Shown here piece by piece: positions 44,836 through 57,857 of a stretch of 64,000 nt of DNA; position 1 is the stretch's first letter; each line of letters starts with the position of its first letter. This stretch comes from a virus (Duplodnaviria; Heunggongvirae; Uroviricota; Caudoviricetes): IMG/VR virus record IMGVR_UViG_3300037852_000238. The stretch is one strand, 5' to 3'. Below the pieces are notes generated by a model. The model saw only the letters and a list, made by a program, of their open reading frames with translations, had not been told where the DNA came from and made no database searches. The translations under genes and the position numbers were made by a program.

Positions 44836-46821
44836 TTACCTTACGCTATTCCGGGCGTGAAGTAAATCGACTCCGAGGTCTTCGGCGAGGTGCACGGTCT
44901 CCTCGCAATAGCGCAAGTAATCGATGTCTGGCGGCAGCTCATTGGTGATTTCAAGGAGGGGGCGGCTCCCCTCCGTCTTGGCCACGCGGCGCTTACCGTC
45001 GAGGATCGGCGCGCCGTCAGTTGAATAATAGTAGCGCACGGCGCGGCCCAGCGGGTGTCCACGCCAGGTGCCACCGCCGCCAACCTTTATCACCGTGACG
45101 AACGCGCGCGGGTCGCGGCAACCGCGAATCGTGTCCTCCAGCGGTGCGCCATCTTTGACATAACGGAGGATGGCCTCACTGCACACCGTCATCTGAGGAT
45201 TCTTCATCATCTGCCCGCGTAGGTCGCCCTCGGTCCAGGGGTCCGAGATCCATCCCTTGCGCTTGACCTTGCCGTCCTCGCGCAGTGCGAGGTACGTGTT
45301 GACCGAGCTGTTGTAGATCGCGCGGTAGGAGGTTTCCTCGACCGCGAAGCCGGTTTCCGTTTCCCAGCCGCGCAAAAGGGCGGATAATTCATCCGCTTTG
45401 TTGCGCGAGCAATAAAATAACACCCCATCCGTATTAGCCGACACCACCGGCACCCCGGCCGCCTCGGCGCGCTCGATCAGCATCAAAATTGATAATTGAC
45501 CTGTCAAAGTTGTCGAAATCAGCAGGTGTGGAGCGTAAAGCGGCGAGTATTGCGACCCGAGCTTCCCGTACACCCCATTGAGTGCGATGCGTCCACCGTC
45601 GGCGCGGACCTTGTCGCCGGCCGCCTTGGCCGCCAGGCGCTCCTTGATCAACTTACCGTAGATATCCAGGAACGCTGGGCCGAGGGCCTTGGGGTAGAGC
45701 CCGAGCTTCACGATGATATTAGGGTACTGTGACGCGACGTCGCAATCTATCAACTGATGCTCGGCGTCGGAACGCAGCGCGCGGTGGGCCTCAGTTGAGT
45801 GCAGGCCACCGATGCCGAGCGTGTACGTCGCGGCGCCGATCCGCACGCTAAAGCCCTTCAGCGCCGCGGCCTCGATCTTGCCGAAGGCATTGACGTAGAA
45901 ATCGGTCGCGGTGAAGCGCTCCAATACCGCGACCAGGCGCGGGTCCTCGAACCGAATAAACGGCGGCGCGGTGTAGCGGAAGCCGGCGCGCTCCGGCCCA
46001 GGCTTCTCGACGCGGCGGCCGAGCGCCGCCTCCGCGCGCTTCTTGACGATCGCTTCGCCGATCTGCGCGTCGCTCTTAGAGCGCAGGTCGATCCGGTACT
46101 CGCGCGATAAGGCGATTCGAAGCTCGATCGGCTCGCGCAGCGCGGCGTATAGCCCCTCCGTCGCGTCGAGGTCGTTAAAGCAGTACAGCGTCGCGAAATT
46201 CATCTGTTCGCGAGTGAGCCAGGTGTCTTCCGGGTAGGGCAGGTCCACCATGAACCGGCCATGGAGCCGGCCATGAAGCATCTTCAGCCCTTGTCGCACC
46301 GAGGGATTGGGCTCGATCAGGTCGATATGGTTGTACCGCGGCAGCCGTAGGCCTAGTTCCTTTTCGACAGTCCAGGGCTTCATATCGTGTTTAACGATCT
46401 GATCGCTGGCGGCCTTGAGCCGCGCGTTATCGGCGCTGGCCAGCGCGAGCGCGAGAATCGGCATGTCGTAGGCCAGCCCGTTGAACGAGATCAGCAGGTT
46501 GCTCTGGAGGACGGCCTGCAGTCCCGCGCGGTCGAGTCGGGAGCGCTCGCTCAGCTCGAAAGCTAGTCGCTTGCCGTCTTCGAATCGCTTGAAACAGACG
46601 ACGAAAAAATTGCGGAAGACTTCAACATCGATCCCGACGGCAGAGCGCGAGTCGTGGTTCCAAGCAGCCTCGTCGAAGACGAGCCGTTCTTCGCCTGCGG
46701 CTCGTAACAGCTCGGCGTGATGCGCGCGGAAAGGGTCGTGGAAGCCCTGGCGCGCGGCCGGAGGTGGCGGAGGTGCACTCCACCGCGGCGAAAACAGGCC
46801 GAGCTGTAGAGCGTTGGTCAT
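44836..46821 (-). CDS. family B DNA polymerase
   Basis: Motif A DVASQYPNII (DxxSLYPSII), motif B ALNGVYGKLGS (KxxxNSxYG), motif C SANTDGV (YGDTDS-like). Confidence 0.75.
   Translation of the reverse strand: MTNALQLGLFSPRWSAPPPPPAARQGFHDPFRAHHAELLRAAGEERLVFDEAAWNHDSRSAVGIDVEVFRNFFVVCFKRFEDGKRLAFELSERSRLDRAGLQAVLQSNLLISFNGLAYDMPILALALASADNARLKAASDQIVKHDMKPWTVEKELGLRLPRYNHIDLIEPNPSVRQGLKMLHGRLHGRFMVDLPYPEDTWLTREQMNFATLYCFNDLDATEGLYAALREPIELRIALSREYRIDLRSKSDAQIGEAIVKKRAEAALGRRVEKPGPERAGFRYTAPPFIRFEDPRLVAVLERFTATDFYVNAFGKIEAAALKGFSVRIGAATYTLGIGGLHSTEAHRALRSDAEHQLIDCDVASQYPNIIVKLGLYPKALGPAFLDIYGKLIKERLAAKAAGDKVRADGGRIALNGVYGKLGSQYSPLYAPHLLISTTLTGQLSILMLIERAEAAGVPVVSANTDGVLFYCSRNKADELSALLRGWETETGFAVEETSYRAIYNSSVNTYLALREDGKVKRKGWISDPWTEGDLRGQMMKNPQMTVCSEAILRYVKDGAPLEDTIRGCRDPRAFVTVIKVGGGGTWRGHPLGRAVRYYYSTDGAPILDGKRRVAKTEGSRPLLEITNELPPDIDYLRYCEETVHLAEDLGVDLLHARNSVR
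44837..44870 (-). promoter_or_regulatory. degenerate copy 5 of 34-nt two-box motif (TACCTTACGCTA-N13-GTAAATCGA)
   Basis: Same spacing and orientation; directly 5' of dCTP-deaminase-like gene. Confidence 0.4.
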
Positions 46822-47372
46822 GACCGCCAACGCCGCTCCGGCGCGGCGAAAGTCGGGGTCGCCTCGTGGCCCCAACTTTCCCACCCCGGCCGCTGCTGTC
46901 GCGCAAAGAGTTCTAGGTACGGCCCCGCGAGCAAGGACTCGATCCGCTCGTACGCCTCCTCGGGCTTACGCGAGTGCTCTCGGCGTGGGGCCGTAATCAA
47001 CTTGCGAACCGAAGCCGAGCGCCGGCGCGGGTTGCCGCGCGTCGCCAGCAAGCACGGCTCCGGGTTCGTCCGGGTCCAGTGCCCCAGCCCCATAAACGGC
47101 GAGCCGTCGCGGTTTGTTTTCACCCAATAGAAGCCGACGGTCTTATAGGTAAACCCCCAGGCCGTGATCACATCGAACGCGACGTGAAGCATCGGGTCTA
47201 TCGCCCAGAGTAGAAGCACGCAATCGGGCGCCGCGCGCTCGGCTACCTGGAGGGCCTTTATATCGTCGAGCGACATAGTGTCGTACCACGCGTCGGCGCA
47301 GCGCCCGCGGCCGCGCGCGGACCACGTGCGGAAGTGCCAGGGCGGATCGGCGTAGATTACTGCCGCGGTCAT
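46818..47372 (-). CDS. MT-A70-family DNA N6-adenine methyltransferase
   Basis: IYADPPW motif; 184 aa. Confidence 0.85.
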   Translation of the reverse strand: MTAAVIYADPPWHFRTWSARGRGRCADAWYDTMSLDDIKALQVAERAAPDCVLLLWAIDPMLHVAFDVITAWGFTYKTVGFYWVKTNRDGSPFMGLGHWTRTNPEPCLLATRGNPRRRSASVRKLITAPRREHSRKPEEAYERIESLLAGPYLELFARQQRPGWESWGHEATPTFAAPERRWRS

Positions 47373-47830
47373 TCCGGCCGCAGATCCTGCGCCGGGTCGA
47401 ACCCACGGGGGTTATCTTGGCCGTTGGATGTCCGCGGCTGGGCCGGCCGCGCGACAATACCCTGCTGCATCATGTAGGCTTCGACCAGGAGCAAGTATCG
47501 CCGCAAGTCGCGTATCTCAGCCAATACCGTGCCGTCCTCGCCGCCGGGACCTTCCTCGATCTTGGCGAAGATATCTTCGGCGGTGTAGCTGTTGCGGAGA
47601 TGTTGAATATCTTCCGGGGTACCTGAATCGACTTGAAAAGCTCGCGGCGCAGGCGGCCGGCTCAGCATCGCGATCATACGGTCCATCTTGCGGCGCAGCA
47701 TGAAGTACGCCGACCGGCCGCCGGCCGCCTTCCAGGAGCCGCCATAGGAGCGGTCCTTCACCTTTAGGTAACGTACGTCCTCGGCGGCGATCTCGCTGAG
47801 GCGATCGTGGTAGGCGAAATCTTCGGTCAT
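47369..47830 (-). CDS. DUF1599-like phage protein
   Basis: RSYGGSWKAAGGRSAYFMLRRKMDR block. Confidence 0.4.
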   Translation of the reverse strand: MTEDFAYHDRLSEIAAEDVRYLKVKDRSYGGSWKAAGGRSAYFMLRRKMDRMIAMLSRPPAPRAFQVDSGTPEDIQHLRNSYTAEDIFAKIEEGPGGEDGTVLAEIRDLRRYLLLVEAYMMQQGIVARPAQPRTSNGQDNPRGFDPAQDLRPE

Positions 47831-48237
47831 TTGAAATTCCCCTTCGCTTTTTCGATCAGAACTTCGCCGTCATCAACGTAGCCCGTAAGCCGTTCGGCGA
47901 GGTCGTCCCAGCTTTCGCCTGGCCGCTGGCCGTAGATCCGCTTGCCTTGTATCTGCGCCCACAAGATTTCGCGGGCGGTGGAGAAGCCGACGTAGCCATC
48001 CCCTAGTACCAGGATCGCGTCGCTGTTTTGTATTCTCTGAAAATATAGGAGATCCGCAAGTATTTTGTCGAGCCCGTCGTCAGACCAGTTCTCGTTGGGC
48101 TGGCGGTGCTGCGGCAGGACGGCGAGCGAGAAGCACAGGATGCCGCGGCGGGATAACTCCCTCTGGGCGTCGATGAAGGATTGTTCGAATTTGGTCGATC
48201 CGCAGAGGGTTATTATCATTGCCGGCACACCCGACAT
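47827..48237 (-). CDS. nucleoside 2-deoxyribosyltransferase-like (Rossmann) protein candidate
   Basis: MIITLCGSTKF…AILVLGDG pattern; weak. Confidence 0.35.
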   Translation of the reverse strand: MSGVPAMIITLCGSTKFEQSFIDAQRELSRRGILCFSLAVLPQHRQPNENWSDDGLDKILADLLYFQRIQNSDAILVLGDGYVGFSTAREILWAQIQGKRIYGQRPGESWDDLAERLTGYVDDGEVLIEKAKGNFK

Positions 48238-48932
48238 TGCATTTCGGAAATAGGGTCACGCGTATCGCGCGGCACCCAGCCAGTTTCAAATTTGGCGCGC
48301 AGGTCTTTGAGAGATGTCGGTTGCGTGTCGCGGCCTGGCGAGCGGAATGTGTATCCCGTTAGCGCCTCAAGTTCCTCGCCCCATAGGTAAGCGGTGAGAT
48401 TGTATTTCCACAACTCCCACCATTCGATCAGGCGCTGGAAAAAGCACAGCATACAGTCGGTGCGCTTCGGGATGATTATGCCGTGTTCATCGTTGAACCG
48501 GATAACGTCGGATTTGCACATCCCCGCGTCGCGCAGCGGAAATACCATCTCGACGTTCGGGACTTGCTGGTAGTCGCCGCCCTCCCGTTCCTCTTCGTCA
48601 GCACGTAGGCCAACGTAGAAGCGCGCCGGTGAGTGTTGAGAGAGGTAATCGGCGAACGGCTCGATCTTGAGGACGCGCGTACACCAGCGCTGCCGCCAGT
48701 TGGGCAGGGCTTTCCATTTCTTTATCAATCCGTCAAAACCGCCAGGGTACATGATCGGGATGATCGGCCCGAGCCTCGTGGCCAACTCCCGCATGTGGGC
48801 GAACCACTCAGGCGGCTCATTGCCTGTCGGCGTACAGATCCGCGTGAACTCAATTTTTGGATCCTGTTCGGCCAGCATAACGGCCATCGCCACACTGTCT
48901 TTACCGCCCGAAATAGCGACGATGTGGTTCAC
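48216..48932 (-). CDS. phosphoadenosine-phosphosulfate reductase-family (PP-loop ATP pyrophosphatase) protein
   Basis: VAISGGKDS PP-loop; GTG start overlapping upstream stop. Confidence 0.75.
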   Translation of the reverse strand: MNHIVAISGGKDSVAMAVMLAEQDPKIEFTRICTPTGNEPPEWFAHMRELATRLGPIIPIMYPGGFDGLIKKWKALPNWRQRWCTRVLKIEPFADYLSQHSPARFYVGLRADEEEREGGDYQQVPNVEMVFPLRDAGMCKSDVIRFNDEHGIIIPKRTDCMLCFFQRLIEWWELWKYNLTAYLWGEELEALTGYTFRSPGRDTQPTSLKDLRAKFETGWVPRDTRDPISEMQCRVCRQ

Positions 48933-49783
48933 GCCGTAGGCCTCCACCGCCGCCCCGTACCCTCGCCGGTACGGATGCGCTCGTATTTGTCCCATTCGCA
49001 AAGGTTGTGCTCGGTCTCTAGGAGGTTGGGAAGACCAGACGCTTGCTGGATTTCCCGGAGCGCGTCGCGGGCTTTCGGCGCCAGTCGCATATCCTCTTTG
49101 GTTGGCTGAAAACCGAGGGCTCCATATATCTTGTTGCGCCACTCGCTGCCGGTGCGGTCGCTCCAGTGGTCGCTCTTTACGTATTTTTCCTGAAGGCGAC
49201 TGATCCCTCGAATAGCACCCAGGCCGAGCATGCACCGTTCTTGCTCGTCTTCATAAGGGCCGTAGAGCCAGCGGAGATCCTGCGCGGTTTGGTAGGCAAC
49301 GAAGGCGCCGACGCCGAGCCAGCCGCGGATGGATTGGCAAGTCAACTCGGCTCTCTCTCGCCTTTGGAAGTCGTTCCGACGCGCCGCTTTGTTAGCTCTT
49401 ACGATCACGTCGGCTATACCCGGAAGGTAGAACAGGCCGCCTTTGACCGAGATCTTGTAGGCCAGCGAGTTGATCGCGGGCTCGGGCAACGCCTTCAACA
49501 CCTCGTCGCGCGTTTCGGGCCAGCCCGCAGCGGCCAGCGCTTCGAGTGACTCGACCCGATTATAGATGCGGAAGCCCAGGGCGGCGCTCAGACGGTATTG
49601 CTCCGGCAGGCCCAGGATTATCCTCTTAGCCTCCCGCGACGTACGGTCATCGTCTCGAATCACACAGCAGAACTTGTGCTTCTGTAATATCGGGTCGGTG
49701 GACCAGGGGACAGGCTCGCCGGCCTGACGGCGGTCGAAGATGGCTTGGCGCTCGCGGACGTAGGAGACGAATTGCTGGATCAC
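48929..49783 (-). CDS. paralog A of a phage protein family tentatively related to alpha-glutamyl/putrescinyl thymine pyrophosphorylase (aGPT-Pplase)
   Basis: Shares N-terminal block F..Y..ER.AIF.RR.AG.P.PW(S/T).D.IL.K..FC.V.R.DDR with gene 51078..51944; assignment from memory of thymidine-hypermodification clusters. Confidence 0.45.
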   Translation of the reverse strand: MIQQFVSYVRERQAIFDRRQAGEPVPWSTDPILQKHKFCCVIRDDDRTSREAKRIILGLPEQYRLSAALGFRIYNRVESLEALAAAGWPETRDEVLKALPEPAINSLAYKISVKGGLFYLPGIADVIVRANKAARRNDFQRRERAELTCQSIRGWLGVGAFVAYQTAQDLRWLYGPYEDEQERCMLGLGAIRGISRLQEKYVKSDHWSDRTGSEWRNKIYGALGFQPTKEDMRLAPKARDALREIQQASGLPNLLETEHNLCEWDKYERIRTGEGTGRRWRPTA

Positions 49784-50061
49784 AACGTTTGAACCTCCTC
49801 GATAATCTTACCGCAAGAGGAACAGGCGGTTCCTTTGAAACAATCGGCAAAACTTCCTGGACCGGCACGCTTGTCTACTCGATTATATTGGAAAGTTTGG
49901 CCGTGATCACAAAAGAACGGATGTTTGATTCGATAATCGGGCGTCTCTTTTGCAAAGTCCCAATCTTCCGGATGCCAGTTCTCTTTATCAAAAGAGCGGA
50001 CCGCGGGCACTGTAGCGTAGACCTCGTGGAAAAGGCCGTTTCGGGGAAGCCTCCATCTCAT
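49780..50061 (-). CDS. small Cys-rich (zinc-binding) protein
   Basis: 93 aa; CDH…C…CSSC; coupled on both sides. Confidence 0.45.
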   Translation of the reverse strand: MRWRLPRNGLFHEVYATVPAVRSFDKENWHPEDWDFAKETPDYRIKHPFFCDHGQTFQYNRVDKRAGPGSFADCFKGTACSSCGKIIEEVQTL

Positions 50062-51077
50062 AGCAATCTCTCCTCCGCCATCTCGCGCTTACGCCGAGCC
50101 TGCCATGTCACCTGCCGGCGCTGGAGCCACTCGGTCGCCGCGCGCCGCCAGTCCGTCGCTTCGCATTCGGAAATGATCTCCAGCGCGTTGACGTAAGCGT
50201 GCCGCTTGTGGGCTAAGTGCGCGAACCACATCGGCTTGGCAACGCGCGCGAACCAGCGGTTTACGAACCCGTACGCCCGCGGGTCTTCCAGGAACAAGGC
50301 CAAGTCTCGGTCCCAAGCGGCGGGATCGTCAACAACGGGGTAAGGGGTTACCTCACCCCGCGCGTAGGGGCAAGGTGCCGGGTCGGCGGAGGCTAGGGGG
50401 CGGAGCTTGTTGTACAGATCCAGGTACGCGTGCCAATTCGTCGAGACCTGGTAGTAGGTGCCGATCTCTAGGCCGAGCTGGGCGGCAACATACTCCTGGA
50501 GGAACGCGAAGTGCACTGCATTTGCGCCATAGGCGCCGAGGCAGATGTCATTCGACCGGCAGTTGACCTGCATCTGTAGCCGGCCCGCGAGGTTCCAGAA
50601 GATTGCCTGTTGATTACAGGGCACATCTTTTAACGCCTCATCTGTCCGCAGATCAGTTCGCGGGTCCCACATCTGGAGTATCGCGCGTCGACTCGCTACG
50701 TTCTGGCGTAACAACGTCACCACGCGTTCGATCTGGTCGAATTCAAATTGATGACGCCACCGGTAGCCGTAGGCCCCCTGCAACGTGACGCCGTCGTCGG
50801 AGAAATCCTTGAACCTTGGCAGAAACTGCTCCAAGAAGGCTAGGTCTTTCCGACCAGCAAGCATGTGTAGCGCTTCAAACAGATGGAAAAACGGGTTAGC
50901 GTCGCGCAACGACTCGAACAGCACGCGCTCCGCCGGCCGCGAATAGACCGTCGTCACCGGCTCAGGAAGTACGATTACGTCCCCGGCGCGCGAGGGCGAG
51001 GGCTGGCCGCGGGCGGCGAGCTCGTTTAGGGCGAGGGGGAGGGCTTGATTTACGTTCCGGCAGCGGATTACGAACAA
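50058..51077 (-). CDS. thymidylate synthase-family pyrimidine hydroxymethylase (dUMP hydroxymethylase-like)
   Basis: PCNQQAIFW (ThyA PCHxxxQF nucleophile) and RSNDICLGAYGANAVHF (ThyA RSxDxxLGxPFNIAS); 339 aa with non-canonical N- and C-terminal regions. Confidence 0.7.
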   Translation of the reverse strand: MFVIRCRNVNQALPLALNELAARGQPSPSRAGDVIVLPEPVTTVYSRPAERVLFESLRDANPFFHLFEALHMLAGRKDLAFLEQFLPRFKDFSDDGVTLQGAYGYRWRHQFEFDQIERVVTLLRQNVASRRAILQMWDPRTDLRTDEALKDVPCNQQAIFWNLAGRLQMQVNCRSNDICLGAYGANAVHFAFLQEYVAAQLGLEIGTYYQVSTNWHAYLDLYNKLRPLASADPAPCPYARGEVTPYPVVDDPAAWDRDLALFLEDPRAYGFVNRWFARVAKPMWFAHLAHKRHAYVNALEIISECEATDWRRAATEWLQRRQVTWQARRKREMAEERLL

Positions 51078-51944
51078 CTAAACCTCCCTAGGACGGTATA
51101 GGGCGCGGGGGCGGCCTTCGCCGTTTTGAACACGCAAGTACTTTTCCACCTCACACATCACGTTCCCAGAATCCAGCCAGTCAAAATTTACTTGGCTCTC
51201 TTTAATTAGTAAAGGGTAAACCTCTCGTAACTCCTCTAAAGCTTGCTTTTGACTTAACGGTCGTTTGACTGGACGCTCGTGAAGCCGATTTAATCCACGG
51301 AGCGTCCCTGGACCCGAGGCGAACCAGGTGTTACGGTCTGGTGCGTCGGCGAGTATCGGAGTAAACGCCATGTCGATAATCGCTTGAAAAGCCATAAACG
51401 GACCCCAACCGCAATAAAGCATCAAGGCGGCATGTGCCTTTTGTAATGATTCAGTGAAACTTAACGAAAGAAACTGGCGATCCCTCCACAATCGGCCGAG
51501 GACGATTTCCGCGATATAGCGCGCCTTAGACCAAACGAACCACGGTACACGTTTGTCGCTTTCCGCCCTAATCATGTAGGCACCAGTGTGCCATTTCTCG
51601 CCGCGCTTTGATATCGCCTCGATTACCTCCGTCACAGCCTCCGGCCGAAAGCGCCGAACCGTTGGCCAAGCGCGCGCGTCGATCAACGCTTGGAGCGTCG
51701 TCGGCCAGTTGATCTGCCGCGCCGCGCAACACATCCACCAGAGGTGCGGGTGGTCAGCATAGGGCTCGCGGATGTTGGCCTTAATCCACCGCGTCACGCG
51801 GTCGTCCTCACGGCGAACATTGCAGAAAGAGTACTTCCGCAAGATTAGGTCGTCGGTCCATGGCCAGAGGTCGTGATTTACCTCTTTGCTGATACGGATG
51901 GCTTCGCGCTCCTTGATCCAGTAGATGAATGGATCGAGGTTCAC
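51078..51944 (-). CDS. paralog B of the aGPT-Pplase-like family
   Basis: Same N-terminal block as 48929..49783. Confidence 0.45.
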   Translation of the reverse strand: MNLDPFIYWIKEREAIRISKEVNHDLWPWTDDLILRKYSFCNVRREDDRVTRWIKANIREPYADHPHLWWMCCAARQINWPTTLQALIDARAWPTVRRFRPEAVTEVIEAISKRGEKWHTGAYMIRAESDKRVPWFVWSKARYIAEIVLGRLWRDRQFLSLSFTESLQKAHAALMLYCGWGPFMAFQAIIDMAFTPILADAPDRNTWFASGPGTLRGLNRLHERPVKRPLSQKQALEELREVYPLLIKESQVNFDWLDSGNVMCEVEKYLRVQNGEGRPRALYRPREV

Positions 51945-52390
51945 GACCGCCTCATAACAACACCGAGAGCGTGAAGCGGATAAACGCTTAAACCGAACCC
52001 AAATAGCGCCGAGCCGTGACTAGCGGCCTCCTGTCGTCGATTCTCTCGCAAAACTCCGAAACGCAATCGGGCATTAATGAAAAGAACATCGTCACAATCC
52101 GCAAGAGCGCGCTGGAAGATCCGCGTCTCAGTGCCGGCTGGGATTAGGAGAATGACCCTCCGTTGGCGACCTTCGGTTATACACCTCTCTACCCATCGCT
52201 CCCGCGCCTTAGCGTAAGGAGGGTTGACGAACACCGTCTCAGCGTTCCAGGGGAGGGTCGCGCCGTCCTCGGGCGGCGTATAGAATCGCTCGGCGCCCGT
52301 CGGATTGTCCGGCTCCGTACAAGGATCGAGCCCGATCTGACCGCCAAAGAGCGCGCGGACTGGCTCTAAGACGTAAGCGGGCGTCAACAT
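51941..52390 (-). CDS. phage-type DNA N6-adenine methyltransferase (Dam-like, NPPY)
   Basis: VFVNPPYAKA motif IV; internal ATG start chosen. Confidence 0.65.
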   Translation of the reverse strand: MLTPAYVLEPVRALFGGQIGLDPCTEPDNPTGAERFYTPPEDGATLPWNAETVFVNPPYAKARERWVERCITEGRQRRVILLIPAGTETRIFQRALADCDDVLFINARLRFGVLRENRRQEAASHGSALFGFGLSVYPLHALGVVMRRS

Positions 52391-52452
52391 CGCTTGACGA
52401 ACGTGCGACTCTGGTCGGTAGCGCTTCCCGTTGTCAAAGCGATGAGAGGCGA

Positions 52453-53007
52453 TCACCCCATCACCTCCCGCAGTATCTCCACCGCGTGATCGCCGGGCAG
52501 CGTCAAGACCCGCTCCCCCGCCGCGGCGGCCTTTCGCCGGGTTGCGTCGATCGATTTCACCTTGTCCGCGACGAGCTGCTCCTTGATCGTTTTCCCGCCG
52601 TTCCGGGCCTGTATGCGCGCCAGGCAAACCGCGAGCGGCGTGTCGAGGTACGCCCACAGATAATCCTGGCCGGCGGTGCGGAGCTCCTCGGACAGGGTCA
52701 GGTAGCCCGAAAAGAGAGTCGAGATGATGACGCCCTCGAACAGGACGTGGCGCGCGCGGCGGGCGGCAAGGCGGACGGACTCTTTGACGAGAGCTTGAGT
52801 TGGGATCGCGTCGCAGCCGCCACAGGGGGTGCGGTAGGGGCCGATCACGATTAGGTCCCCGGCCTCATAGCCCATGACGGAGCGCGGGGCGCCTTTCGCC
52901 GTGGTGTAGGGGGCCAGGGCGATCTCGCACGTCCCCGGCGTGGCTAGGAAGGCTCGGGCGATTGCGCTCTTGCCGCTGCCGTTGCATCCTCTGATATTTA
53001 CAATCAT
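52453..53007 (-). CDS. P-loop nucleotide/DNA kinase (5-hmdU DNA kinase-like candidate)
   Basis: Walker A IRGCNGSGKS; paralogous to next gene. Confidence 0.55.
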   Translation of the reverse strand: MIVNIRGCNGSGKSAIARAFLATPGTCEIALAPYTTAKGAPRSVMGYEAGDLIVIGPYRTPCGGCDAIPTQALVKESVRLAARRARHVLFEGVIISTLFSGYLTLSEELRTAGQDYLWAYLDTPLAVCLARIQARNGGKTIKEQLVADKVKSIDATRRKAAAAGERVLTLPGDHAVEILREVMG

Positions 53008-53579
53008 GGTGCCGACACCCATTCCACGATCCGCGCGACGGCGTCCTCGGCGGACATTCGCTTGACCCATAAGCCGCGATCACCAAAATGACGAACCTGG
53101 CGCAAGCCGCGACCGTAATGGTCCTGAATGCTATCTAGCGTCGCTGGGCTCAGCGGGCGCGGGTCATTAACCGCGGCACGGCGAGCAAGCATGTTAGTTT
53201 GGCTCTGCTCGATCGACGTGTTGAGAATCACGAACCGATAAACGGTCCGCGGTGCGAAATTGGAGCACCCGAGATCAACCCAGCGCTGGTGAGCCCCGTG
53301 AACCCGAATGCCCTCGAACAGTACATGCTTACCGGCGGAGTGCTGCCGCTTCACGATCTCGATAACTTGATCCATATCCTTAAACGTGTCACAGCCGCCC
53401 GTGTTGGCCTCATCGTATTTGCCGATCAGGAAAGTTGGCGCAGGCGCCGCGAGGTCGTAGCCCTCGATTTTCTTGCCGTCGGTCCACATGACGGGCGGTC
53501 CAGCCGGGAAGCGCGCTAGCGCCTGGCGCATGACCCAGCTTTTGCCGCTGGCGTTTCCGCCGCGAACGTTGATTATCAC
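53004..53579 (-). CDS. P-loop nucleotide/DNA kinase paralog
   Basis: Walker A VRGGNASGKS. Confidence 0.55.
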   Translation of the reverse strand: MIINVRGGNASGKSWVMRQALARFPAGPPVMWTDGKKIEGYDLAAPAPTFLIGKYDEANTGGCDTFKDMDQVIEIVKRQHSAGKHVLFEGIRVHGAHQRWVDLGCSNFAPRTVYRFVILNTSIEQSQTNMLARRAAVNDPRPLSPATLDSIQDHYGRGLRQVRHFGDRGLWVKRMSAEDAVARIVEWVSAP

Positions 53580-54370
53580 GCCACGTTCTCCGGTAGACAG
53601 CGCTCTAGCCGCTCGGCGAGCGGCCCCCAGCCGGCGAGTCCGTGGCGAATTTCACGGATGTCTTTACCGATGGAGTAATGGCCGCCGAGAGATGACAACC
53701 ACTTACAACACACGGTTTCGGTTTCCTGTGAACCACACGGACGATCGTAACGCGGTGGCGCCTTGAACCCAGAGAAATGCTGAAGCATATGCTCGTAGGC
53801 CCCCGGCGGCAGCCTTCCCAGCGCGGCCCGCGGCGACTCATACATCATCGGGATCGACGGCGAGAACGAGACCCTCGCGCCATAGACCCGCTCCATTACG
53901 TCGGCAATCTTGAACGCGATCCACGGGCCGAACATCGGCCAGCGGACAACCGCGGCTATGAGATCGTCGGCGTTATCTATCCGCGCCAAATCTCGAACGC
54001 GCTCCTCGGCCGAGATTACTGAGAGCCAATTAATTGCCTCGACGCACTTTTGCCCGCGAAAGTGCCGACGTTCGGTTGCCCGAGGCCAGCGTGAGCCGAG
54101 CGGCGAAGGCGTTTGGTTCTCCGCCGCGTGACTCATCCATTGCCAATAATCCGGCCCCTCGTGCTCCGACAACCAGGCGCTCGCGCCTAGGTGATAATAG
54201 CAGAAATAGGTAAGCAACAGCCGACAGAGCTGCGGCTCGGGGATCTGCGCGCCAGCCACCGCGATATAGACCGGGTCTAGGTCGCCGGTGGTAATGAGGC
54301 GCTCGCCGAACGCAATACAGGCGTCGAGGGCGTCGTCCTGTTCGAAGCCGATGGTTTGAAGATCGATCAA
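53576..54370 (-). CDS. hypothetical protein in modification cluster (264 aa)
   Basis: Protein-like ORF. Confidence 0.45.
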   Translation of the reverse strand: MIDLQTIGFEQDDALDACIAFGERLITTGDLDPVYIAVAGAQIPEPQLCRLLLTYFCYYHLGASAWLSEHEGPDYWQWMSHAAENQTPSPLGSRWPRATERRHFRGQKCVEAINWLSVISAEERVRDLARIDNADDLIAAVVRWPMFGPWIAFKIADVMERVYGARVSFSPSIPMMYESPRAALGRLPPGAYEHMLQHFSGFKAPPRYDRPCGSQETETVCCKWLSSLGGHYSIGKDIREIRHGLAGWGPLAERLERCLPENVA

Positions 54371-54684
54371 TTCAGGTGACTCCGGCGGAACGCCTCGAAT
54401 ATCAAGACATCCGAGTAAAAGTTGTCGGCGGTCTTCTTTTTGAAATTCCCTCTCATCATCTTGGGATATGCCTTATCTAAAGCCATCCCCACGGACATCA
54501 ACACCACCAGGCGGTCTCTATGCGAGAGGCCGGCGACGTACTCCTGGGCGTCCTTCAAAGCGCGTGGGTCGACGAGCAGCTCGGTGTCACGAAATCGTAT
54601 CTTGATGCCTTGAGACCGTAGTTGCTCCATCAACTCCGGCAGCTCGGCCTCCGGGATGGCCGGGTCGTGACGGATGTCTGACAT
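54367..54684 (-). CDS. hypothetical protein (105 aa)
   Basis: Internal ATG MSDIRHDP; TGATG overlap with radical SAM stop. Confidence 0.35.
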   Translation of the reverse strand: MSDIRHDPAIPEAELPELMEQLRSQGIKIRFRDTELLVDPRALKDAQEYVAGLSHRDRLVVLMSVGMALDKAYPKMMRGNFKKKTADNFYSDVLIFEAFRRSHLN

Positions 54685-56069
54685 CAGAAGCCAACCTCCT
54701 CGGTGGGAACCACGCCGTCGAAGGGGCGGCGCAGGTCGCTGATCTTGAGTGCCTTGGCGGCACCAAGCAGAGTCGAGCCGCACTGGCCCTTGCCGTCGGT
54801 CGAGGTGTCGGCGCAGGAGAGGCAGCCTGATGGGGGGCAGGTGGAGAGTGGTTGGAAATGGTCGCCGATGCGGGTGAACCAGGGGACGCGACGCCCGTGA
54901 CACTGGTCGCTGGTGATGAACTCTGGGCCCATACTGATCCAGCGGCCGTCGTTCCTTTTGGTATATTCGTAGCAAAGCGAACTGGTTATTCCGACCTCTT
55001 TACACTTTTTGTAGTAACGGGCGTGCCCTTCGCGTCGGTACTCCTCAGAGACCGTGATCTGGTTGCCCGCCTGGTGCTCGACCATGAGATTACGAAAGAT
55101 TTGCATGCGGTTGCCGCCAAACTTTTCGACGAGCCGCTCAACCATGACTTTGGCTGAGCCATGGTTACTTTCCACAAACTTGAAGATCGCGTGGTGAACG
55201 CCGGCTGTGGCGAGGAGTTCGATCAACTCCTCGATGTCGTCGTGCGTGACGACGCCAGGGATCATGGGGTTCACTTGGATGCTTATGTAGATCCCGCGGC
55301 GGCGCGCCTCTCGGATCTGGTCAAAGTGGTCGGCGAGGCTAGCCGCTCCTGGCGAAAGCCTCCGCCAGTCATCCTCGTGTGGCGTGTTGATCGAGCGCTG
55401 CATATAGGAATACTTGTTCTTCGACAGAATGTCCATAGCCCAGTCGGGGTATAGCTTCCGCGAGAGGAAGAATACTGGGAGACCGGCCTCGGTGAACGCT
55501 TCGGCGGCGCCCTGAGAGTTGTGATACAACTCTTCGATGGACTGAAATGGATCAGTGAATGGGGTGATGTAGCCGGCTTGGGCGATCGTCATCTGCGCGA
55601 GATGCTTGCGGATAAAGCCGCCGTAGTTCAGAGGCACGGTCACGAGGCCCGTGTGGCGATAACCGTAAGGTGAGTTCAGGACGTAACAGAATGAAGTGCA
55701 GCCGACTCCACAGTAGCCGCCGTATGGCTCAAGCAGGATTGCGTCCGTCATGCAGGGCCGGTCGCGTTCCCCGCGGCGAGCGCTGTCGCCCTTGGAGGAG
55801 TACCATCCTTGAGGTGGCTTTGGATTAACGCCGCGAATGTGGGGTACGGGGTCGAGGTAGACGGTCGTCTCACGCATATTCTCGGGCTTTGCACCACGAA
55901 TGACCGCAACCCGCATCTCGCGCTGGCGCATCTCACGGCCGAGGAAAGGATCAAACTTGGTTTCTACGGGGCCGAGAGAATCCCGCGCCTCGGGGTCGTT
56001 ATGATAGAAGTACTGGTAGGCCTTCTTCTGAGCCTCTTCTTGGTCAATCCAGTCGGTCTCATTCTGCAT
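54684..56069 (-). CDS. radical SAM protein (SPL/DNA-repair-photolyase-like)
   Basis: Cys cluster GGYCGVGCTSFC; 461 aa. Confidence 0.65.
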   Translation of the reverse strand: MQNETDWIDQEEAQKKAYQYFYHNDPEARDSLGPVETKFDPFLGREMRQREMRVAVIRGAKPENMRETTVYLDPVPHIRGVNPKPPQGWYSSKGDSARRGERDRPCMTDAILLEPYGGYCGVGCTSFCYVLNSPYGYRHTGLVTVPLNYGGFIRKHLAQMTIAQAGYITPFTDPFQSIEELYHNSQGAAEAFTEAGLPVFFLSRKLYPDWAMDILSKNKYSYMQRSINTPHEDDWRRLSPGAASLADHFDQIREARRRGIYISIQVNPMIPGVVTHDDIEELIELLATAGVHHAIFKFVESNHGSAKVMVERLVEKFGGNRMQIFRNLMVEHQAGNQITVSEEYRREGHARYYKKCKEVGITSSLCYEYTKRNDGRWISMGPEFITSDQCHGRRVPWFTRIGDHFQPLSTCPPSGCLSCADTSTDGKGQCGSTLLGAAKALKISDLRRPFDGVVPTEEVGF

Positions 56070-56859
56070 GGCTTCTCTCCACTCGGCGTCTTTCGACCCA
56101 ACGGTAAAAACCCGCGCGCGCGGCTGCTACCTGTTCAGGTGAACGAAGCCTTCTACGGTGTTCAGGGCTTGTGGCTGCCTTCAGCAATCGCTCTAGGTTT
56201 TCGGGCGATCGCAGCGCCTCTTTCCTCTCCGGGGACCTCAGTCTACTGAGGTTTTCCTCGCTAGTCACCCACGCCAACTGAGCCTTTTTTCTAGACTCAG
56301 AGTGTCGGAGGGTCTCTCTTTGAGCCGCCGCTTCCGGGGTATCGTTGTACGCTGCGAGATTCGGAAGACGAGAGGGAGCCTCGTTTAAGCGCTCCAGATT
56401 TTCCGCTGACCTTAACCTCTCCAGCGTCTCTGGGGTCGTCATTCTGTCGGCGTGGCCGGCAAGTCTTTCTGGCGTCCACGCGGAACGCATTTTTTCTTTG
56501 GTCTTATCCGAGTGGTGCGTGCCAAGACGGAATCTTTTTCCTTTCATTCTTTGACGAGTAAGTTCGCGGTGTATATCTCTTAATCGTCTATATTTAAACC
56601 GCGACCGTCGTCCCATGTATCTTTTTGTTCCGAACATACAAATAGCCGCCACAGCCATCGCGCCGCCATAGATCTTGGCCAACAAAATATGAGCAAACAA
56701 ATGCTCTTCTGGAATTAACCTTATAATGTTAGACGGCTCGTTTCCACCACCAAAGTAACGCGGCACAATATGATGTCTCTCGAACCGCTCCAGCCCACCC
56801 TGCTTTCCAAGTCGATCGGCGATGAACTCACGATAGACGCGGGCATAATTCACGGTCAA
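56059..56859 (-). CDS. HNH homing endonuclease with NUMOD3-like repeats (low-GC insertion)
   Basis: HHIVPRYFGGGNEPSNIIRLIPEEHLFAH HNH motif; repeated short helical segments (K..RLRSPE..E.LR); TTG start; AT-rich 56450-56760. Confidence 0.7.
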   Translation of the reverse strand: MTVNYARVYREFIADRLGKQGGLERFERHHIVPRYFGGGNEPSNIIRLIPEEHLFAHILLAKIYGGAMAVAAICMFGTKRYMGRRSRFKYRRLRDIHRELTRQRMKGKRFRLGTHHSDKTKEKMRSAWTPERLAGHADRMTTPETLERLRSAENLERLNEAPSRLPNLAAYNDTPEAAAQRETLRHSESRKKAQLAWVTSEENLSRLRSPERKEALRSPENLERLLKAATSPEHRRRLRSPEQVAAARAGFYRWVERRRVERSHAE

Positions 56860-57020
56860 GCTTCCTTTTTGGTCATCTCGCGGATTATTTCGACGCCTTC
56901 CGCGCGATCGTCGACCGGAATAAGCATGCCATTGCCTACGACGTAGTAACCATCGCGACGGCGTTCTACTCTCAACGGACCATCAAGATTAAACTTGACG
57001 CCATCTGTAAATTCAACCAC
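56856..57020 (-). CDS. small hypothetical protein (54 aa, GTG start)
   Basis: Hand translation; RBS-like GGTGAGGGG adjacent; stop overlaps HNH start. Confidence 0.3.
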   Translation of the reverse strand: MVEFTDGVKFNLDGPLRVERRRDGYYVVGNGMLIPVDDRAEGVEIIREMTKKEA

Positions 57021-57023
57021 CCC

Positions 57024-57857
57024 TCACCCCACATTCCAAAAGAGCACATCCCCGGCACCGTACCACTCGCGGCCGTAACTCATCCACCAACGATAACATT
57101 TGAGATCGTAGTAGGAATTACACGGCCAAGGCGGCGTTGGTCCCGGCCGCGCCTCGTCCTTGTACTCGTAGCCCTCGTCAACGATCTCGACCTCCAAGCC
57201 GCCAAGCGACTCGCCCACCATCTTGTCGATATAGGTCCGGACCGCGCCGGCCGGCCGCGAGTAACCGAGATGGACGATTACGCGGAACACGCTCCGGTGC
57301 CGTAGGAAGCCGCGTATCACTCCGGCGGCGATCGTCCCAGAGCTCGCGCTTACCAGCACCGTATCCACGTCCGGCGGCAACGCCGTGCGCGCTACCTCGC
57401 GCGCGGTCTCGGCGACCGTCTCGGACAGCTTTAGAGCGTTCGGAAACATGTAGCCGCCGCGGCCGGCAATGTCGGCCTTGGCGCGATGATACAACACCGC
57501 CGAGCGCCCGGCGGGCAACACGTGAAGCTCGGCCCCGAGCCGCTCGGCCGCGGCCTGTTGCGGCTTGAGCCAAGGTTCCTCGTGCTTGCGAACTGGATAG
57601 TACAGATGACACCGCTTGCCGAGAAGCGCGCAGGCTCGCGCGACGGCCCATCCCCCCTGACTGTGCGCCGTGTCGAGCACCCCAATGACACTCTCCGGGC
57701 GAGCAAGGGCGTGCGCCCACACCCCACGGGTCTTAGAGAAATTAGGGCCGCCCGGACAAGACAGATCCTCGCGCTTGACCCAGAGCCCCAGCGCGGGGTG
57801 ATGTTCTAGGGAGGTGGAGGTCACGCACATCGGCGTGACCTCCGTGGTGTCGAGCAT
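57024..57857 (-). CDS. PLP-dependent enzyme of tryptophan-synthase-beta superfamily (ACC deaminase / D-cysteine desulfhydrase-like)
   Basis: Fold-type II PLP blocks (SxGGWAVARACALLG, Gly-rich SASSGTIAAG). Confidence 0.65.
   Translation of the reverse strand: MLDTTEVTPMCVTSTSLEHHPALGLWVKREDLSCPGGPNFSKTRGVWAHALARPESVIGVLDTAHSQGGWAVARACALLGKRCHLYYPVRKHEEPWLKPQQAAAERLGAELHVLPAGRSAVLYHRAKADIAGRGGYMFPNALKLSETVAETAREVARTALPPDVDTVLVSASSGTIAAGVIRGFLRHRSVFRVIVHLGYSRPAGAVRTYIDKMVGESLGGLEVEIVDEGYEYKDEARPGPTPPWPCNSYYDLKCYRWWMSYGREWYGAGDVLFWNVG

What the first reader, a model, noticed from the sequence alone, without database searches (positions are those of the whole stretch)
48216..57857. Thymidine-hypermodification-like gene cluster with duplicated kinases and duplicated pyrophosphorylase-like proteins
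The cluster contains a thymidylate-synthase homolog with an intact Cys nucleophile (pyrimidine hydroxymethylase-like) and two paralogous P-loop kinases. It also contains two paralogous proteins that I tentatively relate to aGPT-Pplases, a radical SAM enzyme, a fold-type II PLP enzyme and a PAPS-reductase-family PP-loop protein. This matches the published logic of 5-hmdU DNA hypermodification: hydroxymethylation at nucleotide level, DNA-level phosphorylation by a 5-hmdU kinase, then substitution and tailoring by PLP and radical SAM enzymes. The duplicated kinase and Pplase-like genes and the PP-loop enzyme suggest a two-step or two-substituent variant not yet characterised. Two N6-adenine methyltransferases (MT-A70 and Dam-like) lie in the same block.
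Basis: partly seen in the sequence, partly recalled or inferred. Interest (0 to 1): 0.8.

Follow-up and report, generated by a model that had tools for sequence, protein, structure and literature searches.

The report
Phage thymidine hypermodification gene cluster
This stretch of an uncultured phage genome carries a complete set of genes for replacing thymine in the phage's own DNA with a bulky amino-bearing base. It is the same pathway already worked out in Pseudomonas phages M6 and YuA, so it is a real but largely known system with a few extra gene copies of unknown role.

Summary

With it, the cluster holds the whole M6/YuA-type pathway:
- a dUMP hydroxymethylase;
- a 5-hmdU DNA kinase;
- a glycine:DNA transferase;
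- a radical SAM isomerase;
- a PLP decarboxylase.

These proteins are 38-51% identical to their YuA counterparts. The gene order matches cyanophage Pam3. The transferase keeps the catalytic Cys, both metal ligands and all six glycine-pocket residues of the solved YuA enzyme. The predicted product is 5-(2-aminoethyl)-deoxyuridine (5-NedU).

The two 284/288-aa proteins are clade-1 aGPT-Pplases (PF18723), not the substituting enzymes. Their function is unknown. They and the two kinases are old paralogs of different lineages. The second clade-1 type tends to occur with extra kinases in about nine metagenomic relatives.

The PAPS-reductase-like gene, both adenine methyltransferases and the HNH gene are absent from all fetched relatives (one MT-A70 homolog and non-homologous HNH genes aside). 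I therefore see no support for a two-substituent pathway.

Verdict: a new member of a known kind, of moderate interest, mainly as a handle on the clade-1 question.

The parts
57024..57830 (-). PLP-dependent enzyme (fold type II), predicted C-alpha-glycinylthymidine decarboxylase. Ortholog of M6 gp52 / YuA gp11 / Pam3 gp43. An alternative start lies at 57857.
   Evidence: PF00291 E 5e-18. 46% identity to YuA gp11, with Lys42 in the FSK(T/I)RG motif conserved. 58% to Pam3 gp43. 58-60% in L011 and L020. Called as 268 aa.
56059..56853 (-). HNH homing endonuclease inserted between the PLP and radical SAM genes. A selfish insert, not a pathway enzyme.
   Evidence: phrog_655 E 1e-30; weak PF01844 match. 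Pam3 (gp45) and L020 have annotated HNH genes at this position, but this protein gave no tblastn hit in any fetched locus, those two included.
54684..56069 (-). Radical SAM enzyme, predicted N-alpha-GlyT to C-alpha-GlyT isomerase. Ortholog of M6 gp53 / YuA gp12.
   Evidence: phrog_9252 E 5e-162. 51% identity over 98% of YuA gp12. 58-63% in L009, L010, L011 and L020. NCBIfam rSAM_PA0069 1e-12. The C-terminal Cys cluster is conserved. The cluster motif is CGVGCTSFC rather than CX3CX2C.
54367..54684 (-). Small ORF (105 aa) of unknown function between the radical SAM and ADDT genes.
   Evidence: Called as a gene. No Pfam or PHROG match. No homolog in related loci.
53576..54370 (-). Amino-acid:DNA transferase (ADDT, formerly aGPT-Pplase2), predicted glycine:5-PmdU-DNA transferase.
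   Evidence: PF18724 E 3e-11. PDB hits 8z2m (PaMx11 glycinyltransferase, 1e-55) and 25qc (YuA, 5e-54). YuA glycine-pocket residues D24/E96/K159/K248/Y257/D262 correspond to D32/E100/K154/K223/Y232/D237 here. Catalytic Cys222, metal ligands E218/T219 and base clamp W150 are invariant.
53004..53579 (-). P-loop kinase A, a divergent second 5-hmdU DNA kinase homolog.
   Evidence: PF18748 25.4 bits, below the cut-off of 27. The Walker A motif GNASGKS, the GGCD motif and the FEG motif are kept. 32% identity to kinase B. Groups loosely with the 'type X' kinases of two-kinase loci.
52453..53022 (-). P-loop kinase B, 5-hmdU DNA kinase. Ortholog of M6 gp54 / YuA gp13.
   Evidence: PF18748 59 bits, E 6e-16. 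38% identity to YuA gp13 and 42% to the RHph_TM26 kinase. Clusters with them in the tree. Called as 189 aa.
51941..52456 (-). Dam-like N6-adenine DNA methyltransferase (171 aa), inserted between kinase B and clade-1 Pplase a. Not a conserved pathway member.
   Evidence: PF05869 E 4e-17; NPPY motif. The GTG start overlaps the kinase B stop (GTGA) with GGAGG upstream. Absent from all relatives.
51078..51944 (-). Clade-1 aGPT-Pplase 'a' (PF18723/HMUDK_hel). Ortholog of YuA gp14 / Pam3 gp50. Biochemical role unknown.
   Evidence: PF18723 145 bits. phrog_2396 1e-65. 38% identity to YuA gp14, 47% to RHph_TM26, 41% to Pam3 gp50. Invariant Cys264.
50058..51077 (-). Thymidylate-synthase-fold pyrimidine hydroxymethylase, predicted dUMP to 5-hmdUMP.
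   Evidence: PF00303 1.5e-22. 49% identity to YuA gp17. Best PDB hit is MilA CMP hydroxymethylase at 2e-20, against 5e-13 for thymidylate synthases. All NCBIfam thymidylate synthase equivalogs score far below their cut-offs. Cys154, Arg174, Asp177 and Asn186 are kept; Trp80/Trp82 are lost; there is a ~100-aa C-terminal extension.
49780..50061 (-). Small Cys-rich ORF (93 aa) of unknown function.
   Evidence: Called as a gene. No family match.
48929..49783 (-). Clade-1 aGPT-Pplase 'b', a rare divergent subclade of PF18723. Biochemical role unknown.
48216..48932 (-). PAPS-reductase-family PP-loop protein (238 aa). Co-transcribed neighbour, with no evidence of pathway membership.
   Evidence: PF01507 3e-8, phrog_424 4e-31. 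Absent from all related loci. The nearest cultured homolog (44%, 'Dunaliella viridis virus SI2') has no annotated hypermodification genes nearby.
47369..47830 (-). Conserved 153-aa helical protein that accompanies the hydroxymethylase gene in relatives. Function unknown.
46818..47372 (-). MT-A70-family N6-adenine methyltransferase.
   Evidence: PF05063 1e-29; DPPW motif. A 35% homolog occurs only in L016/L017.
44346..44831 (-). dCTP-deaminase/dUTPase-fold protein, likely supplier of dUMP/dUTP for the hydroxymethylase.
   Evidence: PF22769 2e-16. TIGR02274 72.7 bits, below the cut-off of 92.8. Homologs lie beside the hydroxymethylase gene in L004, L009, L010 and L012.

Best explanation
The cluster is the DNA thymidine-hypermodification module of an uncultured phage. 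The phage assembles on contigs of about 103-104 kb and is related in gene order to cyanophage Pam3. The predicted pathway is the M6/YuA route to 5-(2-aminoethyl)-2'-deoxyuridine (5-NedU).

Before replication (all inferred by homology):
- The dCTP-deaminase-like protein feeds dUMP.
- The thymidylate-synthase-fold enzyme converts dUMP to 5-hydroxymethyl-dUMP.
- Cellular kinases make the triphosphate.
- The phage polymerase incorporates 5-hmdU in place of T.

After replication:
1. Kinase B, and probably kinase A, phosphorylates the hydroxymethyl group in DNA to give 5-PmdU.
2. The ADDT flips the base out. Cys222 attacks C6, phosphate leaves, and free glycine adds through its amine to give N-alpha-glycinylthymidine.
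3. The radical SAM enzyme shifts the glycine from an N-C to a C-C linkage.
4. The PLP enzyme removes the carboxylate to leave 5-NedU.

Shown here by sequence: orthology of each enzyme, and conservation of the catalytic and glycine-binding residues. Inferred: the activities themselves and the final product.

The two clade-1 Pplases share the ADDT fold and keep the equivalent cysteine and aromatic clamp, but they lack the glycine-binding lysines. I infer that they bind flipped 5-substituted dU and work with the kinases. The supporting pattern is that kinase and clade-1 genes are adjacent in most phages and fused in SP10 gp186. The extra kinase plus the extra clade-1 protein would then widen or raise the extent of phosphorylation rather than add a second substituent.

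The Dam, MT-A70, HNH and PAPS-reductase genes are independent passengers.
For: -
- Identities to YuA: PLP 46%, radical SAM 51%, ADDT 39%, kinase B 38%, Pplase a 38%, hydroxymethylase 49%.
- The gene order PLP-HNH-rSAM-ADDT-kinase-Pplase1-hydroxymethylase matches Pam3, at 35-58% identity.
- The M6 enzyme functions were established biochemically (PMC8989533). YuA Pplase2 uses glycine, and its pocket is D24/E96/K159/K248/Y257/D262 (PMC13458397). All six residues are conserved here.
- The catalytic Cys and the E/T metal ligands of PaMx11 PUGT (PMC11472151) are invariant in the ADDT alignment.
- The hydroxymethylase is closer to MilA than to thymidylate synthases and fails every thymidylate synthase equivalog cut-off.
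- Nine more loci carry the radical SAM + PLP + ADDT + kinase + hydroxymethylase set.
- The kinase gene sits immediately upstream of the clade-1 gene in ZC01, Lucjan, Simon, YuA and Pam3, with short gaps (about 150 bp or a small ORF) in PaMx11, Epa5 and TM26. The two are fused in SP10 gp186 (PMC5889632).
- Two or more kinases occur in 5 of 9 loci with a Pplase-b-type gene, against 0 of 8 without (Fisher p 0.03).
Against: - No chemistry was measured. The product is predicted only from homology at 38-51% identity.
- The radical SAM cluster motif carries a one-residue insertion (CX3CX3C). This is seen in none of 9 homologs and could alter or abolish activity.
- Kinase A is below the Pfam cut-off and could be a nucleotide kinase rather than a DNA kinase.
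- The proposed kinase-partner role of clade 1 rests on gene linkage only. M6 gp54 alone phosphorylates DNA in vitro, and lysates of gp54 and gp51 alone made N-alpha-GlyT.
- In L004 and L022 a Pplase-b-type gene occurs with glycosyltransferases and no detectable kinase.
- The co-occurrence statistic uses related, non-independent loci, some of them truncated.
Confidence: 0.75

Rival explanations
1. Two-branch pathway. Kinase A, Pplase b and perhaps the PP-loop enzyme would form a second branch. That branch would convert part of the 5-hmdU or 5-PmdU into a second, different product, either another substituent or reduction to thymine. The DNA would then carry two T-derived bases.
For: - Both paralog pairs are ancient and belong to distinct lineages that are retained together in several loci.
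- Pplase b keeps an ADDT-like fold, the cysteine and many invariant charged residues, as an enzyme would.
- The Pplase b stop overlaps the PP-loop gene start, which suggests translational coupling.
- The clade-1 function is unassigned in the papers read.
Against: - Only one clade-2 transferase, one radical SAM and one PLP enzyme are present.
- The glycine-binding lysines of ADDT are replaced in clade 1.
- ViI has two active kinases and makes a single modification.
- The PP-loop gene is absent from every relative that has Pplase b.
- Clade-1 proteins were dispensable for product formation in M6 and ViI lysates.
Confidence: 0.12
2. Same early steps but a different end product. Because the radical SAM motif is altered, or because the PLP enzyme has diverged, the pathway would stop at N-alpha-glycinylthymidine or yield another glycine-derived base rather than 5-NedU.
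For: - The CX3CX3C spacing is unique among 10 homologs.
- Identities to characterised enzymes are only 46-51%.
- PaMx11 shows that the same N-alpha-GlyT intermediate can be routed elsewhere.
Against: - The radical SAM gene is full length, with both Cys clusters and 51-63% identity to homologs in loci of the same content.
- It is assembled identically in independent samples.
- No FAD lyase or acetyltransferase of the PaMx11 route is present.
- The PLP Lys is conserved.
Confidence: 0.1
3. Ordinary nucleotide metabolism. On this reading there is a conventional thymidylate synthase plus nucleotide kinases and unrelated enzymes that happen to be neighbours, with no DNA hypermodification.
For: - The genes sit in a replication and nucleotide-metabolism block with a ribonucleotide reductase, a dCTP-deaminase-like gene and a polymerase.
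Against: - Thymidylate synthase equivalog models score 26-86 bits against cut-offs of 108-427.
- The kinases match the 5-hmdU DNA kinase family, not Tmk.
- An ADDT with an intact active site has no role outside DNA base modification.
- The whole set recurs together in many phages.
Confidence: 0.02

Closest known systems
Pseudomonas phages M6 / YuA 5-NedU pathway (gp51-gp55 in M6; gp10-gp17 in YuA)
   Same: The enzyme set is the same: ADDT (glycine), PLP decarboxylase, radical SAM isomerase, 5-HMUDK, clade-1 Pplase and dUMP hydroxymethylase. Identities are 38-51%. The glycine pocket and catalytic Cys are conserved. Nmad5 is also present, just beyond the window end.
   Different: - The gene order is rearranged (PLP-rSAM-ADDT rather than ADDT-PLP-rSAM).
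- There is a second kinase and a second clade-1 Pplase.
- The radical SAM motif is CX3CX3C.
- A family-B-like polymerase replaces PolA.
- The backbone is a myophage-like genome of at least 103 kb, not a 60-kb siphophage.
- Dam, HNH, PAPS-reductase and MT-A70 genes are interspersed.
Pseudanabaena cyanophage Pam3 (ON014755), gp43-gp54
   Same: It is the closest cultured match in gene order: PLP, HNH, rSAM, aGPT-Pplase2, kinase, aGPT-Pplase1, thymidylate-synthase-like gene, then the 153-aa protein homolog (gp54). The window also shares Pam3 gp33-like and gp34-like replication-module genes and baseplate genes.
   Different: - Pam3 has one kinase and one clade-1 Pplase.
- Pam3 keeps Nmad5 inside the cluster and uses PolA.
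- Pam3 is 54.5 kb.
- Identities are only 35-58%.
- I did not find a report of the Pam3 DNA modification chemistry in the one Pam3 genomics paper I searched.
Pseudomonas phage PaMx11 / Rhizobium phage RHph_TM26 (5-NmdU / 5-AcNmdU route)
   Same: The early steps are the same: hydroxymethylase, 5-HMUDK, and a glycine-using ADDT (PDB 8z2m, E 1e-55). The kinase gene neighbours the clade-1 gene. RHph_TM26 gives the best cultured ADDT match at 42%.
   Different: Those phages tailor N-alpha-GlyT with an FAD lyase, with or without an acetyltransferase. The window has radical SAM and PLP enzymes instead and no FAD enzyme.
Salmonella phage ViI (5-NeOmdU)
   Same: ViI carries two paralogous 5-HMUDKs (gp67 and gp243, both active in vitro) plus one clade-1 and one clade-2 Pplase and a PLP decarboxylase. 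This shows that duplicated kinases do not imply two products.
   Different: - The donor is serine, attached through its oxygen.
- There is no radical SAM enzyme.
- The genes are dispersed over a 157-kb genome.
- There is only one clade-1 protein.
Bacillus phage SP10 gp186 (kinase fused to a clade-1 Pplase domain)
   Same: It links a 5-HMUDK kinase domain physically to a PF18723 domain. This is the basis for reading the window's separate kinase and clade-1 genes as working partners.
   Different: Here the two are separate polypeptides, in two copies each. The SP10 product is alpha-glutamylthymidine.

Membership tests
M6-type 5-NedU thymidine hypermodification pathway | Thymidylate-synthase-fold dUMP hydroxymethylase with a Cys nucleophile and uracil-specifying Asn, and not a true thymidylate synthase | tested here: met
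   Cys154 and Asn186 (= E. coli N177) are kept. The best PDB hit is a hydroxymethylase. Thymidylate synthase equivalog cut-offs are missed. 49% identity to YuA gp17.
M6-type 5-NedU thymidine hypermodification pathway | 5-hmdU DNA kinase (PF18748) above the Pfam gathering score | tested here: met
   Kinase B scores 59 bits against a cut-off of 27 and groups with YuA gp13. Kinase A scores 25.4 bits, below the cut-off, but its motifs are conserved.
M6-type 5-NedU thymidine hypermodification pathway | Clade-2 Pplase/ADDT with the catalytic Cys, the metal ligands and the glycine-binding pocket | tested here: met
   PF18724 scores 43.8 bits against 26.2. C222, E218/T219 and all six YuA pocket residues are conserved.
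M6-type 5-NedU thymidine hypermodification pathway | Radical SAM isomerase homologous to M6 gp53 with a CX3CX2C cluster motif | tested here: inconclusive
   Homology is strong (51% to YuA gp12; phrog_9252 5e-162). The motif is CGVGCTSFC (CX3CX3C), unlike 9 homologs.
M6-type 5-NedU thymidine hypermodification pathway | Fold-type II PLP enzyme homologous to M6 gp52 with the Schiff-base Lys | tested here: met
   PF00291 5e-18. 46% identity to YuA gp11. Lys42 is aligned.
M6-type 5-NedU thymidine hypermodification pathway | 5-NedU actually present in virion DNA | not testable with these tools
   This needs nucleoside LC-MS of phage DNA. The phage is known only from metagenome assemblies.
Clade-1 aGPT-Pplase (PF18723, HMUDK_hel) | Full-length match above the gathering score, with the conserved FC(N/C)V..R.DR and LCE.DKY motifs | tested here: met
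   Scores are 145 and 93 bits against a cut-off of 25. The motifs are present in both proteins. The fold matches ADDT and HhH glycosylases.
Clade-2 ADDT (as a filing for the 284/288-aa proteins) | PF18724 match and amino-acid-binding lysines (FKIAD and CKW) | tested here: not met
   Neither protein matches PF18724. The lysines are replaced by Y/F-Q/E and by C-E.
Conventional thymidylate synthase (ThyA) | Score above the NCBIfam equivalog cut-off, with folate-site Trp80/Trp82 and the short C-terminus | tested here: not met
   The best score is 85.8 bits against 174.6; others are 26-64 against 327-427. Both Trp residues are absent. There is a ~100-aa C-terminal extension.
PAPS-reductase protein as a member of the hypermodification pathway | Conserved co-occurrence with 5-HMUDK/ADDT genes in relatives | tested here: not met
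   It is in the PF01507 family (34 bits against 22.5). No homolog exists in any of the related loci. The nearest cultured homolog has no annotated hypermodification genes around it.

The most novel reading that the evidence does not exclude
The two kinase lineages and the two clade-1 Pplase lineages may form two distinct DNA-acting enzyme pairs with different jobs. One pair would feed the glycine transferase. The other, built on the rare Pplase-b subclade, would use its conserved cysteine to process the remaining 5-PmdU differently. Two possibilities are reduction to thymine, the long-unassigned step inferred for phiW-14-type phages, and attachment of an unknown group. That would finally assign a catalytic function to clade-1 aGPT-Pplases.
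Probability: 0.12. Interest if true: 0.7.

Novelty: new member of a known kind. Interest (0 to 1): 0.35.

Why it matters
The cluster adds a well-resolved example of the M6-type thymidine hypermodification pathway in a different and larger phage backbone. That backbone is Pam3-like and myophage-like, is at least 103 kb, and carries a family-B-like polymerase. This supports the published view that these genes move as a module.

The more useful yield concerns clade-1 aGPT-Pplases. They were predicted in 2013, were dispensable in lysate reconstitutions, and still have no assigned function.
- They split into two old lineages.
- The rare lineage (about 1% of family representatives) is almost always accompanied by the common one.
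- The rare lineage tends to occur with extra 5-hmdU DNA kinases.
- Both lineages keep the cysteine that is catalytic in the solved clade-2 transferases.

This gives concrete protein pairs to test together. The practical interest is the usual one: hypermodified DNA resists restriction enzymes, and these enzymes are candidate tools for site-selective DNA derivatisation.

Tried and rejected
- **Megablast against phages.** The 9.6-kb region found nothing among 50,697 phage records. No close cultured relative exists, and all comparisons had to be made at the protein level.
- **PDB sequence searches.** Clade-1 Pplase, kinase B and the radical SAM enzyme found no informative structure.
- **Small ORFs.** 54367-54684, 49780-50061 and the 130-aa ORF at 47827-48219 matched no family.
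- **Promoter and terminator scan of 44-60 kb.** Counts were at the level of shuffled sequence, so I draw no operon boundaries from it.
- **PAPS-reductase gene as a pathway enzyme.** Considered and rejected, because it is absent from all relatives.
- **The 284/288-aa proteins as the substituting enzymes.** Considered and rejected.
- **Conventional thymidylate synthase.** Considered and rejected.

Full report
**What is in the sequence**

The window is a phage genome fragment of about 64% GC. Tail, baseplate and fibre genes lie on the plus strand at 1-20 kb. Replication and nucleotide-metabolism genes lie on the minus strand from about 40 kb onward. The radical SAM protein's exact sequence is found on a 103,149-bp contig in one SRA assembly and a 27,982-bp contig in a second, and Pplase b's on a 104,458-bp JGI metagenome contig. 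It is therefore a real replicon and not an assembly artefact.

The region 44.3-57.9 kb is a tight run of minus-strand genes, many with overlapping stop and start codons.
- a PLP fold-type II enzyme;
- a radical SAM enzyme;
- two P-loop kinases of the 5-hmdU DNA kinase family;
- Dam;
- two PF18723 proteins of 288 and 284 aa;
- a thymidylate-synthase-fold protein;
- a PAPS-reductase PP-loop protein;
- MT-A70.

Two genes were missed. The first is an amino-acid:DNA transferase (ADDT, PF18724, the former aGPT-Pplase2) at 53576-54370. The second is an HNH homing endonuclease at 56059-56853.

Three gene starts needed correction:
- The PAPS-reductase gene is 238 aa, not 339.
- Kinase B is 189 aa.
- Dam starts at a GTG that overlaps the kinase B stop codon and lies behind a GGAGG ribosome-binding site.

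**What the core pathway is**

Lee et al. (PMC8989533) established the pathway in Pseudomonas phage M6:
1. gp54 phosphorylates 5-hmdU in DNA.
2. gp51 (clade-2 Pplase/ADDT) replaces the phosphate with glycine, giving N-alpha-glycinylthymidine.
3. gp53 (radical SAM) isomerises this to the C-linked form.
4. gp52 (PLP) decarboxylates it to 5-NedU.

The window encodes an ortholog of each. Identities to the near-identical phage YuA are as follows.

| Window protein | YuA counterpart | Identity |
|---|---|---|
| PLP enzyme | gp11 | 46% |
| Radical SAM | gp12 | 51% |
| ADDT | gp10 | 39% |
| Kinase B | gp13 | 38% |
| Clade-1 Pplase a | gp14 | 38% |
| Hydroxymethylase | gp17 | 49% |

No nucleotide-level match exists in the phage collection.

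The closest cultured phage in gene order is the cyanophage Pam3. Its order is PLP, HNH, rSAM, aGPT-Pplase2, kinase, aGPT-Pplase1, Nmad5, then the thymidylate-synthase-like gene. Apart from Nmad5, which here lies beyond the window end, this is the order seen here, at 35-58% identity. The window also shares the Pam3 gp33-like and gp34-like genes.

Nine further metagenomic or MAG loci carry the same enzyme set.

**Donor specificity of the transferase**

[quoted passage not shown] Swapping two of these positions is enough to switch a diamine transferase to glycine (PMC13458397). All six residues are conserved in the window protein, as D32, E100, K154, K223, Y232 and D237.

Three further features of the PaMx11 enzyme are also conserved (PMC11472151):
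- the catalytic cysteine;
- the Glu/Thr metal ligands;
- the tryptophan that clamps the flipped base.

The best PDB sequence matches are the PaMx11 and YuA enzymes, at E 1e-55 and 5e-54. Glycine is therefore the predicted donor.

**The hydroxymethylase**

The ThyA-like protein keeps the nucleophile Cys154, the phosphate-binding arginines, Asp177, and the Asn that specifies uracil. It matches the MilA CMP hydroxymethylase better than any thymidylate synthase. It falls far below every NCBIfam thymidylate synthase equivalog cut-off. Together with 49% identity to YuA gp17, this supports a dUMP hydroxymethylase.

A dCTP-deaminase-fold gene at 44346-44831 recurs beside the hydroxymethylase gene in relatives and probably supplies dUMP.

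**The duplicated genes**

The two kinases are 32% identical, and the two PF18723 proteins are 25% identical. These are old paralogs, not recent copies.

In a small neighbour-joining tree the kinases fall into three lineages:
- Kinase B groups with the M6/YuA type.
- Kinase A is a long branch near a second type.
- In the three other two-kinase loci, one gene comes from each of the two non-M6 lineages.

Both kinases keep the Walker A, GGCD and FEG motifs.

The PF18723 proteins split cleanly into a common 'a' type and a 'b' type. The 'a' type includes YuA gp14 and RHph_TM26, and Pam3 gp50 is 41% identical to window Pplase a. The 'b' type is rare: 24 of 2043 family representatives at E<=1e-30. No cultured phage has a match better than about 31%.

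A 'b' gene is accompanied by an 'a' gene in five of the nine loci that have a 'b' gene. Two or more kinases occur in five of the nine loci with a 'b' gene and in none of the eight without (Fisher p 0.03). These loci are related to each other and some are truncated, so I treat this as suggestive only.

**What clade 1 might do**

Lysate reactions consisting only of the kinase and the clade-2 enzyme made the transfer product in M6 and ViI, so the clade-1 proteins were not needed. No function is assigned to clade 1 in the papers read. No structure exists for the family.

The invariant cysteine in LCE(W/F)DKY aligns with the catalytic cysteine of ADDT, and the G-P-F motif aligns with the base-clamping G-P-W. 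The glycine-binding lysines, however, are replaced.

Gene linkage also points to a role with the kinase:
- The kinase gene sits immediately upstream of the clade-1 gene in ZC01, Lucjan, Simon, YuA and Pam3, and nearby in PaMx11, Epa5 and TM26.
- The two are fused in SP10 gp186.
- Pfam now names the family '5-hmdU DNA kinase, helical domain'.

My inference is that clade-1 proteins bind flipped 5-substituted dU and act with the kinases. A catalytic role is not excluded.

**What does not belong**

The PAPS-reductase-like gene has no homolog in any related locus. Its nearest cultured homolog (44%) sits in a phage with no annotated hypermodification genes nearby. Dam and this HNH gene are likewise absent from relatives. 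MT-A70 has one 35% homolog, in L016/L017. Pam3 and L020 have an HNH gene at the same spot, but it is not detectably homologous to this one. The two methyltransferases have intact NPPY and DPPW motifs and probably add N6-methyladenine independently.

Nothing supports a second substituent. There is one transferase, one radical SAM enzyme and one PLP enzyme. ViI shows that two active kinases can serve a single modification.

**Caveat on the product**

The radical SAM cluster motif reads CGVGCTSFC. This is a one-residue insertion relative to the CX3CX2C motif found in nine homologs. The gene is otherwise intact and well conserved, so I still predict 5-NedU. A stalled or altered product remains possible.

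**Verdict**

This is a genuine thymidine hypermodification cluster of the known M6/YuA/Pam3 type. I file it as a new member of a known kind. The residual interest lies in the two-lineage clade-1 and kinase arrangement, which offers a direct experimental route into the unassigned clade-1 function.

Noticed in passing
window 55686-55712 (minus strand; radical SAM residues 120-128): The radical SAM cluster-binding motif is CGVGCTSFC (CX3CX3C). It carries a one-residue insertion relative to the CX3CX2C motif found in YuA, L009, L010, L011 and L014-L018. The same sequence appears in two independent assemblies.
   Followed up: partly
window 44836-46821 (minus strand): The DNA polymerase has no Pfam match, even at E 5. 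Its only PDB sequence hit is the Sulfolobus family-B polymerase 1s5j (2e-6). It shows DxxSxYP, NGVYG and TDG-like motifs. Relatives (L004, L011, L012, L020, L021, Pam3) have a family-A polymerase at the same position.
   Followed up: partly
window 47369-47830 (minus strand): A 153-aa helical protein family has 89 homologs, none with a Pfam domain. It sits downstream of the hydroxymethylase gene in at least nine loci, including Pam3 gp54 (annotated 'nucleotide modification'). The confident AF2 model has no informative structural match. It is a conserved but unexplained accessory of these clusters.
   Followed up: partly
beyond the window end, about 65385-65981 in window numbering (L006 89-685): An Nmad5-domain gene (PF18757) lies inside the modification cassette in M6-like phages and Pam3. 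In this phage it lies just upstream of the helicase gene, outside the 64-kb window.
   Followed up: no
L004 10762-11730 and L022 4359-5150, 7683-8438: Pplase-b-type genes sit next to TET-associated glycosyltransferase (TAGT) genes. In L022 there is also a radical SAM/SPASM enzyme. No 5-hmdU DNA kinase was detected in the fetched stretch. This may be a glycosylated hydroxymethyluracil pathway that uses clade-1 proteins without phosphorylation.
   Followed up: no
L003 11548-14463: A relative has two clade-1 Pplases and two kinases. Its tailoring set is different: a myo-inositol-1-phosphate-synthase-like enzyme and a divergent 350-aa ADDT. This suggests an uncharacterised thymidine modification.
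   Followed up: no
L020 3146-6297: One relative with the M6-type tailoring set (radical SAM 63% identical) carries three 5-hmdU DNA kinase homologs plus a Pplase-b-type gene.
   Followed up: no
window 56059-56853 (minus strand): An HNH homing endonuclease lies between the PLP and radical SAM genes. Pam3 (gp45) and L020 (HNH_3) also have HNH genes at this junction, though not detectably homologous to this one. This hints at a recurrent homing site.
   Followed up: partly
window 35623-36165 (minus strand): A 180-aa protein combines a helix-turn-helix domain with a C-terminal match to ribosome modulation factor (PF04957, E 6.6e-7, above the cut-off). This is an unusual combination for a phage gene.
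   Followed up: no
window 51941-52456 (minus strand): The Dam gene was not called in the public gene calls for this contig. It has a good ribosome-binding site and a GTG start overlapping the upstream stop codon (GTGA). It is inserted between kinase B and Pplase a, which are adjacent in most phages.
   Followed up: yes
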